From the IMG/VR virus record IMGVR_UViG_2541047500_000013: a stretch of 7,468 nucleotides of DNA; one strand, 5' to 3'. Of the stretch, positions 725-1,326 are shown in pieces. Below the pieces are notes generated by a model. It saw only the letters and a program-made list of their open reading frames with translations, did no database searches and was not told where the DNA came from. This DNA comes from a virus (taxonomy: Duplodnaviria; Heunggongvirae; Uroviricota; Caudoviricetes). A program made the position numbers and the translations under genes. How positions within the stretch are numbered: the first letter of the stretch is position 1; each line of letters begins with the position of its first letter.

Positions 725-754
725 AATTTAGAATAGCCTAAGAGTTATGGTCAA
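725..754 (-). promoter_or_regulatory. PL-like leftward early promoter (-35 TTGACC at complement 749..754; -10 TAAATT/CTAAAT around complement 725..731)
   Basis: Minus strand reads TTGACC, a 17-18 nt spacer, then TAAATT. The -10 overlaps operator copy OL-1. It sits between the repressor gene's terminator and the leftward ORFs. Confidence 0.35.
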
Positions 755-777
755 GCTTTTTGTGTAGAAAAACCTAA
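728..777. promoter_or_regulatory. OL-like operator pair: TTAGAATAGCCTAA (728..741) and GTAGAAAAACCTAA (764..777)
   Basis: Both are reverse-complement versions of the 14-bp motif TTAGG-N4-TCTAA found three times in the repressor/cro intergenic region. OL-1 is exact in its half-sites; OL-2 has one mismatch. Confidence 0.55.
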
Positions 778-789
778 GCTTCTTGATGT

Positions 790-817
790 AAAAAACACAA
801 GTATTTGAAAGTTTGTG
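790..817 (-). terminator. Weak intrinsic terminator downstream of the repressor gene
   Basis: Minus strand has stem CACAA/TTGTG (796..800 with 813..817), a 12-nt loop, then six U (complement of A790..A795). The stem is short and AT-rich. Confidence 0.3.
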
Positions 818-852
818 CTTTTTATTACAGAGAGTTGCGAAAAAAAGGGGGG

Positions 853-1260
853 TTATTTATTTGCGCTTCTTTTGCGAGCTTTGAGTAGTTCTTCAAAAAG
901 TTTGTTGAAATTCTCAACTCGAGCACGCATCTCTGACAACAGAGCCTTTTGCTCTGACTCAGGCAGTGCGTCGAACAGTTGAAGCAACTCTTTTTGATCT
1001 TCTGTCAGATTGACTGGCTGATTATCTGGGATCGGTTCGCCTGGTTGCTTATCTTCATCTCCAAAAAGAAGCCAAGTCGGCGAGCACTGAAGCGCCTGGC
1101 TCAGTGCGAATAATCTCTTCCCCGCTGGCTGTGTTTCATCTCTTTCCCATTGAGAAATTGTTACGTGAGCCACTTTGACCAGCTTACCTAATGCGGCCTG
1201 AGACAGTTTTAATTTTTTTCGCCTGTATAAGAGGCGAGCACCGAAGGTTTCGTTTTTCAT
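853..1260 (-). CDS. dicA: DicA-like XRE-family HTH repressor (CI-type immunity repressor), 135 aa
   Basis: ORF-track ORF with HTH LKLSQAALGKLVKVAHVTISQWERDETQP and C-terminal ...LFALSQALQCSPTWLLFGDEDKQP...NFNKLFEELLKARKR. Closely resembles the E. coli Qin DicA sequence as recalled. Divergent from the cro-like gene. Confidence 0.9.
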   Translation of the reverse strand: MKNETFGARLLYRRKKLKLSQAALGKLVKVAHVTISQWERDETQPAGKRLFALSQALQCSPTWLLFGDEDKQPGEPIPDNQPVNLTEDQKELLQLFDALPESEQKALLSEMRARVENFNKLFEELLKARKRSANK

Positions 1261-1274
1261 ATTAGGTAATTCTA
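1261..1274 (-). promoter_or_regulatory. PRM-like promoter element for the repressor (-10 TAGAAT at complement 1269..1274); predicts a near-leaderless mRNA
   Basis: Minus strand TAGAAT lies 8 nt upstream of the repressor ATG (complement 1258..1260). No Shine-Dalgarno and no good -35, as at lambda PRM. Overlaps operator O-A. Confidence 0.35.
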
Positions 1275-1326
1275 ATTTTTCTTGACTTAGGTTTCTCTAC
1301 GATCTAGTTTCCTTAGGAAAATCTAA
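1262..1326. promoter_or_regulatory. Tripartite OR-like operator: O-A TTAGGTAATTCTAA (1262..1275), O-B TTAGGTTTCTCTAC (1287..1300), O-C TTAGGAAAATCTAA (1313..1326)
   Basis: Three 14-bp imperfect palindromes with shared half-sites TTAGG / TCTAA and centre-to-centre spacing of 25-26 bp, between the divergent repressor and cro-like genes. Confidence 0.6.
1282..1310 (+). promoter_or_regulatory. PR-like rightward promoter (-35 TTGACT 1282..1287; candidate -10 TAGTTT 1305..1310)
   Basis: Strong -35 hexamer abutting O-B. The -10 is weak at 17-nt spacing. The predicted start site falls inside O-C. RBS AAGGGG (1325..1330) then ATG 1337. Confidence 0.4.

What the first reader, a model, noticed from the sequence alone, without database searches (positions are those of the whole stretch)
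728..1326. One 14-bp operator motif (TTAGG-N4-TCTAA) used three times at OR and twice at OL
The repressor/cro intergenic region holds three regularly spaced copies, and two reverse-complement copies lie about 80-125 bp downstream of the repressor gene, overlapping a TTGACC -35 and a -10. This reconstructs a lambda-like bistable switch (OR1-3 plus OL) from sequence alone and predicts the DicA-like repressor's binding site and immunity specificity.
Basis: seen in the sequence. Interest (0 to 1): 0.55.

Follow-up and report, generated by a model that had tools for sequence, protein, structure and literature searches.

The report
P22-type prophage operators, DicA family
The five repeated 14-bp sites are real and are almost certainly the binding sites of the repressor and Cro proteins of an E. 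coli O157:H7 prophage; this is an ordinary P22/Qin-style lysis-lysogeny switch with its own operator variant.

Summary
TTAGG-N4-TCTAA occurs exactly at 728-741(-), 1262-1275(+) and 1313-1326(+). It occurs with one shared mismatch (TCTAC) at 764-777(-) and 1287-1300(+). Chance predicts 0.23 hits, and there are none elsewhere in the window or in the rest of the 44-kb prophage.

The window is the immunity region of a lambdoid prophage inserted at ompW in E. coli O157:H7. The repressor (853-1260, -) is 63% identical to Qin DicA, and its N-terminal domain matches P22 C2 (E 1e-21). The cro-like gene (1337-1564, +) is 83% identical to DicC.

The five sites sit, to within 1 bp for four of them and about 4 bp for OR1, where P22 has OR3/OR2/OR1 and OL2/OL1, and where Qin has Oa/Om/Oc and the two dicBp sites. 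They share the TTAG-N6-CTAA core of Qin Oc, which DicA binds in vivo.

Across 99 related loci the operator sequence changes with the repressor's recognition helix. Among near-identical repressors the operators stay fixed while the adjacent spacer is hypervariable.

OL has two sites. The distal OL site flanks the -35 rather than overlapping it. The G5/T10 asymmetry is local; the family consensus is TTAGR-N4-YCTAA.

This is a new immunity type of a well-known kind, of low to moderate interest.

The parts
728..741 (-). OL1, the promoter-proximal left operator TTAGGCTATTCTAA. It lies in the PL spacer and overlaps the -10 by 3 nt, about -23 to -10 relative to the inferred PL start.
   Evidence: Exact motif match. 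Same position as P22 OL1 and the Qin dicBp site TTAGTCATGGCTAA. Nearly invariant in 29 OL alleles while the adjacent 6-7 bp are hypervariable.
764..777 (-). OL2, the distal left operator TTAGGTTTTTCTAC (one mismatch, CTAC). It lies 9 bp upstream of the PL -35.
   Evidence: Positional homologue of P22 OL2 (35-bp spacing in P22, 36 bp here). It matches the middle OR site at 13 of 14 positions (pair I3). Conserved in close relatives.
725..754 (-). PL-like promoter: -35 TTGACC (754-749), 18-bp spacer, -10 TAAATT (730-725). The inferred start is the A at about 718, within CTCATCAAG.
   Evidence: Promoter scan. The -35 hexamer is identical to that of P22 PL and Qin dicBp. The start is inferred from the annotated 5' nt of the P22 PL transcript in CCATCA.
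789..824 (-). A-tract / hairpin / U-tract between the repressor stop and OL2. Candidate terminator of the repressor transcript.
   Evidence: Inverted repeat I12. RNA fold -11.2 kcal/mol, z = -3.5 against shuffles. Conserved in relatives. Function is inferred.
853..1260 (-). Repressor, 135 aa, DicA family. It has a P22 C2-like helix-turn-helix N-terminal domain, a conserved C-terminal domain and no S24 peptidase domain.
   Evidence: Pfam HTH_3, E 4e-14, with no peptidase hit. 63% identity to K-12 DicA over the full length. P22 C2 N-terminal domain structures 1ADR/2R1J match at E 1e-21.
1262..1275 (+). OR3 in the lambda/P22 naming, the repressor-proximal operator TTAGGTAATTCTAA. It overlaps the inferred PRM -10 TAGAAT (1274-1269) and the inferred near-leaderless start at about 1263.
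   Evidence: Exact match. Same register relative to the repressor ATG as P22 OR3 and Qin Oa. The P22 record places the PRM 5' nt 4 nt before the c2 ATG.
1287..1300 (+). OR2, the middle operator TTAGGTTTCTCTAC (one mismatch). It starts at the last T of the PR -35 and fills the PR spacer.
   Evidence: Same register as P22 OR2 and Qin Om. The CTAC variant is conserved in close relatives. In more distant relatives with the same recognition helix only a half-site remains.
1313..1326 (+). OR1, the cro-proximal operator TTAGGAAAATCTAA. With its flanks it is the best palindrome, CCTTAG-N6-CTAAGG. It covers the inferred PR start, about -4 to +10.
   Evidence: Exact match. Homologue of Qin Oc, the site shown to bind DicA in vivo (PMC3441716). 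The TTAG/CTAA core is invariant in 23 of the 24 OR alleles of this helix-3 group; L079 has GTAG.
1282..1310 (+). PR-like promoter: -35 TTGACT (1282-1287), 17-bp spacer, -10 TAGTTT (1305-1310).
   Evidence: Read from the sequence. TTGACT is identical to, and at the same place as, the -35 of P22 PR and Qin dicCp. It falls below the scan threshold because the -10 matches only 3 of 6.
1337..1564 (+). Cro-like regulator (DicC homologue, P22_Cro family).
   Evidence: Pfam P22_Cro, E 3e-13. 83% identity to K-12 DicC.
1548..2099 (+). CII-like activator (YdaT family), the next gene of the PR operon.
   Evidence: Pfam YdaT_toxin. PHROG 163, 'CII-like transcriptional activator', E 3e-40. A YdaT homologue acts as a CII analogue in CP-933P (PMC8630535).

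Best explanation
The window holds the immunity region (immC type) of a lambdoid prophage of E. coli O157:H7. The five 14-bp sites are its operators.

A dimer of the 135-aa DicA-family repressor is expected to bind them, reading the TTAG/CTAA half-sites with a P22 C2-like helix-turn-helix. The P22_Cro-family protein DicC is expected to bind the same sites.

Occupancy of OR1 (1313-1326) and OR2 (1287-1300) would block the rightward promoter, TTGACT-17-TAGTTT, which drives cro, the cII-like gene and the replication genes. Occupancy of OL1 (728-741) and OL2 (764-777) would block the leftward promoter, TTGACC-18-TAAATT. In the near-identical prophage record that promoter drives an operon containing ydfC, the DicF sRNA, a DicB-like division inhibitor, xis and int.

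OR3 (1262-1275) overlaps the -10 and the start of the repressor's own weak, near-leaderless promoter. It would be the site through which Cro, or excess repressor, shuts off repressor synthesis.

The repressor lacks an autocleavage domain, so derepression should need an antirepressor, as in Qin, rather than RecA-stimulated cleavage.

Shown here: the presence, enrichment, position and conservation of the sites, their covariation with the recognition helix, and the protein homologies. Inferred: which protein binds, the order of occupancy, the transcription starts and the mode of induction.
For: - Enrichment: 5 sites against 0.23 expected. None elsewhere in the 44-kb prophage, and 1 in a 50-kb chromosomal sample.
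- Proteins: DicA 63% and DicC 83% identity. P22 C2 N-terminal domain, E 1e-21. P22_Cro and HTH_3 domains.
- Positional homology to the annotated P22 operators and promoters, within 1 bp except OR1, which is shifted about 4 bp.
- Positional homology to the Qin Oa/Om/Oc and dicBp sites, which share the TTAG-N6-CTAA core.
- Published experiments on the Qin homologues. DicA binds Oc in vivo, and an A-to-C change inside CTAA abolishes binding (PMC3441716). DicC ChIP-seq peaks lie on both sides of dicA, with a palindromic TT(A/C/T)G ... C(G/A/T)AA motif (PMC11430063).
- Covariation. 43 unique loci with helix VAHVTISQWERD carry on average 4.8 TTAGR-N4-YCTAA sites and 0.07 Qin-type sites. 17 loci with ISHVSVSQWER[DG] carry 0 and 3.9. 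Other helix types have TTGAG-N4-CTCAA or TAAC-N6-GTTA sites at the same places.
- Selection. Among 29 OL alleles with repressors at least 95% identical, the 6-7 bp next to OL1 are hypervariable while the operators are nearly invariant.
- DicF lies in the PL operon of the sister record.
Against: - No binding data exist for this allele.
- In Qin, Om and Oa did not bind DicA on their own in the in vivo assay. Carrying the core is therefore not proof of occupancy, and the two CTAC sites may be weak or depend on cooperativity.
- In more distant relatives with the same recognition helix (L003, L004, L007, L008) the middle OR site is only a half-site.
- The related loci share ancestry, so the covariation counts are not independent events.
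- The PR -10 (TAGTTT) and the PRM -35 are poor consensus matches, and the transcription starts are inferred from P22 and Qin only.
- The window has no rem antirepressor homologue, so how this copy is induced is unknown.
Confidence: 0.86

Rival explanations
1. Only some of the five sites are functional operators, chiefly OR1 (1313-1326) and OL1 (728-741), and perhaps OR3. The two CTAC sites (1287-1300 and 764-777) would be decayed relics, or promoter-context sequence that the repressor does not occupy.
For: In Qin only Oc bound DicA in vivo; Om and Oa did not (PMC3441716). The middle OR site is reduced to a half-site in L003, L004, L007 and L008, which carry the same recognition helix. Both CTAC sites deviate at the same core position.
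Against: The two CTAC sites match each other at 13 of 14 positions and are conserved across 29 OL and 24 OR alleles, including next to variable flanks. They sit where P22 has the functional OR2 and OL2 sites, which are weaker and are filled cooperatively (the cooperativity is from established P22/lambda knowledge). A shared, conserved deviation fits tuned low affinity better than decay.
Confidence: 0.25
2. The sites are recognised mainly by the Cro-like DicC protein, or by another factor such as the CII-like YdaT protein, and not by the DicA-like repressor.
For: K-12 DicC ChIP-seq gives its strongest peaks on both sides of dicA, with a TTNG...CNAA palindrome (PMC11430063). DicC is 83% identical between the window and K-12.
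Against: DicA binds Oc in vivo, and a point mutation in the core abolishes it. The operator type tracks the repressor's helix 3 across loci. In P22 and lambda, repressor and Cro share the same operators. CII-type activators act at a promoter inside or just downstream of cro, not at OR or OL (PMC8630535).
Confidence: 0.07
3. The repeats are chance or compositional matches in AT-rich promoter DNA, or are similar only because PR and PL share ancestry, with no protein recognising them.
For: The intergenic regions are AT-rich. Part of the motif (TCTAA/TAGAAT, TAAATT) overlaps -10-like sequence.
Against: No shuffle of 200 reached 5 hits. There are no other hits in 44 kb of the prophage. The half-sites change in step with the recognition helix in other loci while the promoter hexamers (TTGACT, TTGACC) stay the same. 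The operators are conserved beside a hypervariable spacer.
Confidence: 0.02

Closest known systems
Salmonella phage P22 immC (c2 repressor, cro, OR1-3, OL1-3, PR/PRM/PL)
   Same: - The repressor N-terminal domain is homologous (E 1e-21) and the Cro belongs to the P22_Cro family.
- The operator geometry is the same, 5-N4-5: P22 TTAAG-N4-CTTAA against TTAGG-N4-TCTAA here.
- The layout is the same within 1 bp, apart from OR1: CAT, 1-2 nt, site, 6 bp, TTGACT, then a site starting at the last T of the -35.
- At OL the order is site, 8-9 bp, TTGACC, 7 bp, site, then ...CATCA at the transcript start.
- Site spacings are 25/23/35 bp in P22 and 25/26/36 bp here.
   Different: - Core position 4 is G here and A in P22.
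- OR1 sits about 4 bp further from the -10.
- There are two OL sites, not three.
- The repressor has the DicA-type C-terminal domain in place of the S24 autocleavage domain.
- The first PL gene is not a gene-24/N homologue.
E. coli K-12 Qin cryptic prophage dicA-dicC locus and dicBp (operators Oa, Om, Oc; Bejar et al. 1986/1988, cited via PMC10448788 and PMC3441716)
   Same: - DicA is a full-length homologue (63%) and DicC is 83% identical.
- The sites are positional homologues and share the TTAG-N6-CTAA core.
- The leader downstream of PL is conserved.
- The left operon carries DicF and a DicB-like gene in the sister record.
- Published work supports a DicA/DicC mutual-repression switch.
   Different: - The operator inner and flanking bases differ: Qin has TGTTAGYYATRRCTAACA, the window has (C)TTAGR-N4-YCTAA.
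- Helix 3 differs: ISHVSVSQWERG in Qin, VAHVTISQWERD here. The two are therefore predicted to be heteroimmune.
- The middle OR site is a good match here but degenerate in Qin.
- The window lacks rem.
CP-933P (Sp12) PaaR2 / YdaS / YdaT immunity region of E. coli O157:H7 (PMC8630535)
   Same: It comes from the same host, with a lambdoid immunity layout and repeated palindromic operators at PRM/PR and PL. It has a leaderless repressor transcript and a YdaT protein acting as CII analogue. Bistability was shown experimentally.
   Different: The repressor family is different: PaaR2 has no sequence similarity to CI or DicA. That region has four 18-bp inverted repeats with a GTTTAGTAA consensus, and a toxin-antitoxin pair is embedded in the repressor operon.
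Phage lambda OR/OL switch
   Same: The logic is the same: divergent PRM and PR with three operators shared by repressor and Cro, and a second operator set at PL.
   Different: The operators have no sequence relation to lambda's 17-bp sites. There are two sites at OL. The repressor has no RecA-cleavable domain. OL and OR are about 535 bp apart, against 2.3 kb in lambda.

Membership tests
Lambdoid (P22-type) immunity region | Divergent repressor and cro genes separated by a short regulatory region | tested here: met
   Repressor 853-1260(-) and cro-like gene 1337-1564(+), with a 76-bp intergenic region.
Lambdoid (P22-type) immunity region | Repressor with a Cro/C1-type helix-turn-helix domain homologous to P22 C2 | tested here: met
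   HTH_3, E 4e-14. P22 C2 N-terminal domain chains 1ADR/2R1J, E 1e-21, residues 2-69.
Lambdoid (P22-type) immunity region | Three partly symmetric operators at OR that overlap PR and PRM | tested here: met
   Sites at 1262, 1287 and 1313, in register with the annotated P22 OR3/OR2/OR1 and with TTGACT. Occupancy was not tested.
Lambdoid (P22-type) immunity region | Operator set at PL downstream of the repressor gene (three sites in lambda and P22) | tested here: inconclusive
   Two sites (728, 764) flank and overlap the TTGACC-18-TAAATT promoter. No third site appears even at 2 mismatches.
Lambdoid (P22-type) immunity region | RecA-stimulated autocleavage domain (Peptidase S24) in the repressor | tested here: not met
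   The protein is 135 aa and has no S24 hit in Pfam. Its C-terminal half matches only DicA-family regulators.
Lambdoid (P22-type) immunity region | Specific binding of repressor and Cro to the operators, and bistability | not testable with these tools
   Published only for homologues: Qin DicA/Oc and DicC ChIP-seq.
DicA/DicC module (Qin type) | Full-length DicA homologue with the conserved C-terminal domain, plus a DicC homologue | tested here: met
   63% identity over 131 aa and 83% over 75 aa.
DicA/DicC module (Qin type) | Operators with a TTAG-N6-CTAA core at the Oa, Om, Oc and dicBp positions | tested here: met
   Side-by-side reading of L002 and the window.
DicA/DicC module (Qin type) | Same operator specificity (immunity) as Qin, i.e. 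TGTTAGYYATRRCTAACA | tested here: not met
   Window-type loci have 4.8 TTAGR-N4-YCTAA sites and 0.07 Qin-type sites. Qin-type loci show the reverse. Helix 3 also differs.
DicA/DicC module (Qin type) | Left operon encoding DicF sRNA and a DicB-like division inhibitor | tested here: met
   This lies outside the window. In the 99.8% identical record LC567818, DicF is at L001 4799-4850(-) at 76.7 bits, and a 'cell division inhibition protein' CDS is annotated.
DicA/DicC module (Qin type) | Rem antirepressor encoded in the same prophage | tested here: not met
   tblastn with K-12 Rem and with the LC567818 rem finds nothing in the window. A 431-bp segment that holds rem in LC567818 is replaced by 52 bp at window 6537-6588. 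The rest of this strain's prophage was not examined.

The most novel reading that the evidence does not exclude
DicA-family repressors may fall into discrete immunity classes. Each class would be defined by a few helix-3 residues and the matching inner operator bases: TTAGR/YCTAA, TTAGY/RCTAA, TTGAG/CTCAA or TAAC/GTTA.

The window's class is widespread in E. coli and can occur several times in one EHEC genome. The 1-kb region covers at least 80% in 751 of 5,426 complete genomes, with up to 4 places per genome. One repressor could then silence the DicF/DicB operons of several prophages in trans. A copy that has lost rem, like this one, would depend on a sister prophage for induction. That would tie prophage cross-immunity to control of DicF-dependent EHEC virulence.
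Probability: 0.3. Interest if true: 0.45.

Novelty: new member of a known kind. Interest (0 to 1): 0.25.

Why it matters
The result gives a sequence-level map for one of the commonest prophage immunity regions in E. coli O157:H7 and other E. coli: operators, promoters, and predicted heteroimmunity with Qin. In the near-identical prophage record, the left promoter it controls heads an operon that contains DicF, an sRNA reported to influence EHEC virulence, and a DicB-like division inhibitor. The map is therefore useful for designing reporters, for ChIP or EMSA tests, and for defining immunity groups. It does not change the current understanding of how such switches work.

Tried and rejected
- A third OL site: none appears at up to 2 mismatches.
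- A functional meaning for the fixed TTAGG/TCTAA asymmetry: rejected. Relatives with the same recognition helix carry every combination at positions 5 and 10 (TTAGA...TCTAA, TTAGG...CCTAA, TTAGA...CCTAA, TTAGG...GCTAA), so the consensus is TTAGR-N4-YCTAA.
- My early assumption that window ORF 6481-6888 is Rem: wrong. There is no Rem homologue in the window, and that ORF matches PHROG 1212, of unknown function.
- Literature search for the six operator strings: no paper holds them.
- The original Bejar et al. 1986 paper (PMC311701) is not held. Its content is cited second-hand through PMC3441716 and PMC10448788.
- Pan et al. 2019 on O157 DicC contains no binding-site mapping.
- RNAalifold on an automatic alignment of the PL leader gave no convincing consensus structure. 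Single-sequence folds do show two hairpins with varying stems.
- Structure prediction of the repressor was not run.

Full report
**Observation.** The pattern TTAGGNNNNTCTAA, searched with up to one mismatch, has exactly five matches in the 7,468-bp window. Three are exact: 728-741(-), 1262-1275(+) and 1313-1326(+). Two carry the same deviation, TCTAC in place of TCTAA: 764-777(-) and 1287-1300(+). Dinucleotide-preserving shuffles give 0.23 matches on average, and none of 200 reached five. Allowing two mismatches adds only chance-level hits, none near the two clusters.

In a complete 44,350-bp record of the same prophage (LC567822) the motif occurs at these five places and nowhere else. A 50-kb unrelated stretch of an O157:H7 chromosome, including the AT-rich LEE island, has a single one-mismatch hit. 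An unbiased search for 14-mers shared between the two intergenic regions returns the same sites as its top hits.

**Origin of the window.** The window is 100% identical to several E. coli O157:H7 chromosomes. It is 99.8% identical to lambdoid prophages inserted at ompW, the 'PPompW' records.

- ORF 853-1260(-) is a 135-aa helix-turn-helix protein with no peptidase domain. It is 63% identical over its whole length to DicA of the K-12 Qin prophage. Residues 2-69 match the solved N-terminal domain of the P22 C2 repressor at E 1e-21.
- ORF 1337-1564(+) belongs to the P22_Cro family and is 83% identical to DicC.
- The next gene, 1548-2099(+), is a YdaT/CII-like activator. Replication genes follow.

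**Position of the sites relative to promoters.** Reading from the repressor ATG towards cro, the sequence is:

CAT-A-[TTAGGTAATTCTAA]-TTTTTC-TTGAC[T-TAGGTTTCTCTAC]-GATC-TAGTTT-CC-[TTAGGAAAATCTAA]-GGGG...ATG.

- TTGACT (17 bp) TAGTTT is the rightward promoter. The middle site fills its spacer, and the cro-proximal site covers the predicted start.
- The repressor-proximal site contains TAGAAT on the other strand, 7-9 nt before the repressor ATG. No Shine-Dalgarno sequence precedes that ATG. This predicts a weak, near-leaderless maintenance promoter.
- Downstream of the repressor gene lies a hairpin flanked by A and U tracts (789-824, z = -3.5).
- Then, reading leftward: [TTAGGTTTTTCTAC], 9 bp, TTGACC, 7 bp, [TTAGGCTATTCTAA]ATT, with the -10 TAAATT overlapping the last three bases of the site.

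**Comparison with P22 and Qin.** The P22 record annotates OR1-3, OL1-3, PR, PRM, PL and the 5' ends of the PRM and PL transcripts. The P22 sequence has the same layout within 1 bp, apart from OR1.

- P22 reads CAT-AG-[TTAAGTCATCTTAA], 6 bp, TTGACT, with OR2 starting at the last T of the -35.
- The P22 -10 is TAATTT. P22 OR1 overlaps it, whereas the window's OR1 starts 2 bp after its -10, a shift of about 4 bp.
- On the left P22 reads [OL2], 8 bp, TTGACC, 7 bp, [OL1]-ATTTTAGCCATCA, where the transcript starts.
- The operator cores have the same 5-N4-5 geometry, TTAAG-N4-CTTAA in P22.

Qin has the same arrangement. Oa (TTAGCATTAGCTAA) lies next to the dicA ATG. Om lies in the spacer after TTGACT. 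Oc (TTGTTAGTTATGACTAACAA) lies at the dicC promoter. Two sites surround the TTGACC of dicBp.

Published work supports function for the Qin sites. DicA binds Oc in vivo, and an A-to-C change inside CTAA abolishes binding. DicA at Oc represses dicC and activates dicA. Om and Oa were not bound on their own (PMC3441716). DicC ChIP-seq peaks lie on both sides of dicA, with a TT(A/C/T)G...C(G/A/T)AA palindrome (PMC11430063). Both intergenic regions are described as operator-bearing analogues of lambda PR and PL (PMC10448788).

**Comparative test.** I fetched 99 loci encoding DicA relatives from genomes and viral contigs. The operator type follows the recognition helix.

| Recognition helix | Unique loci | Operator type found at the equivalent positions |
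|---|---|---|
| VAHVTISQWERD (window type) | 43 | mean 4.8 TTAGR-N4-YCTAA sites per locus; 0.07 Qin-type |
| ISHVSVSQWER[DG] (Qin type) | 17 | 0 window-type; mean 3.9 TTAGY-N4-RCTAA sites |
| ...SISLWESD | few | TTGAG-N4-CTCAA |
| ...SVFKWE.. | few | TAAC-N6-GTTA |

The loci are related by descent, so these are not independent counts, but the pattern is qualitative and consistent.

Among 29 distinct OL alleles whose repressors are at least 95% identical to the window's, the 6-7 bp between the -35 and OL1 differ in most alleles, while the operator bases are almost invariant.

Within the window's helix group, positions 5 and 10 take every R/Y combination. The strict TTAGG...TCTAA asymmetry is therefore local, and the family consensus is TTAGR-N4-YCTAA.

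**Mechanism.** The most likely mechanism is a P22/Qin-type switch.

- Repressor dimers at OR1/OR2 and OL1/OL2 would shut off PR and PL.
- OR3 overlaps the repressor's own promoter and would be the target through which Cro, or excess repressor, turns it off.
- By analogy with Qin, repressor at OR1 may also stimulate its own promoter. OR1 is centred about 56 bp upstream of the inferred PRM start.
- The repressor has no S24 domain, so induction should depend on an antirepressor such as Rem in Qin.

The steps on binding, occupancy order, start sites and induction are inferences. The sequence features, homologies, conservation and covariation are shown.

**Caveats.**
- OL has two sites, not three.
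- The distal OL site does not overlap the -35.
- The two CTAC sites may be low-affinity or cooperative sites, or unoccupied. In more distant relatives the middle OR site is only a half-site.
- No experiment exists for this allele. Its operator strings appear in no paper of the searchable library.

**Novelty.** This kind of system has been known since the 1980s through P22 immC and Qin dicA/dicC. Only the particular operator variant, and hence the predicted immunity type, appears undescribed. Interest is low to moderate. The practical value lies in the left promoter heading a DicF/DicB-like operon in an EHEC prophage, and in how common this immunity type is: the 1-kb region is at least 80% covered in 751 of 5,426 complete E. 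coli genomes, with up to four places per genome.

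Noticed in passing
window 6537-6588 (compare L001 12365-12795): The window lacks the rem gene, the DicA antirepressor in Qin, which sister PPompW prophages carry. A 431-bp segment holding rem in LC567818 is replaced by 52 bp, and the downstream DNA is only 88.5% identical (a mosaic joint). tblastn with K-12 Rem and with the LC567818 rem finds nothing in the window. This copy may not be inducible on its own.
   Followed up: partly
window about 718-640, minus strand (leader of the PL transcript): The leader is strongly conserved: CATCAAGACACCGCACGGTGTTCTCAGCAAACAGTTCCGCTACCCGGCGTTAAGGGGAA. It is nearly identical in the K-12 dicBp leader and recognisable in distant DicA-family loci. 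Single-sequence folds give two hairpins whose stems differ between loci: ACACC/GGTGT, ATCAC/GTGAT and AACAC/GTGTT for the first, and CCCC/GGGG, CCCTG/CAGGG and GCCG/CGGC for the second. The second hairpin follows a conserved GTTCCGC. The element lies where P22 has nutL, so it may be nut-like or another cis-acting RNA element. An automatic RNAalifold run was inconclusive.
   Followed up: partly
window 6140-6289 (+) and 6230-6442 (+): A sok antisense RNA (Rfam RF01794, 103.9 bits) lies next to a Hok/Gef-type toxin ORF, which is annotated 'gef' in LC567818. This is a hok/sok module inside the prophage.
   Followed up: no
window 6451-6532 (+): A weak match to the isrK Hfq-binding sRNA (27.2 bits, below the gathering score of 50, E 0.009). 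It lies just upstream of ORF 6481-6888 (PHROG 1212, unknown function).
   Followed up: no
window 752 and 637: The window has C752, which gives the PL -35 TTGACC. LC567818 has T there, giving TTAACC, a likely promoter-down variant. The window also lacks one base at about 637 relative to LC567818. This moves the annotated GTG start of the first PL gene (PHROG 21318) out of frame and leaves a 99-aa ORF starting at ATG 589.
   Followed up: partly
window 311-511 (+): On the strand opposite the first PL gene lies a zinc-ribbon-like reading frame (MNTIKFSCPECGG ... CKNCGH ...). It is interrupted by a TAA stop at about 350. It may be a pseudogene or simply a chance frame. Only a weak PHROG hit was found.
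   Followed up: no
window 5193-5951 (+): A periplasmic solute-binding-like protein (SBP_bac_11, E 5e-34). It is annotated in LC567818 as the Paa/AdfO adherence factor, a virulence-associated cargo gene between the replication genes and the hok/sok module.
   Followed up: no
L001 4799-4850 (-), outside the window: A DicF sRNA (Rfam RF00039, 76.7 bits) and a DicB-like 'cell division inhibition protein' CDS lie in the operon headed by the PL promoter of this prophage type.
   Followed up: yes
L051 and L055 (IMG/VR UViG 2869924733, contigs 000007 and 000003): Two prophage contigs from one genome carry repressors 98% identical to the window's. L051's OR allele group has two members, which may include L055. 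The E. coli genome search also shows up to four places per genome. Several prophages of the same immunity type can therefore coexist in one cell.
   Followed up: partly
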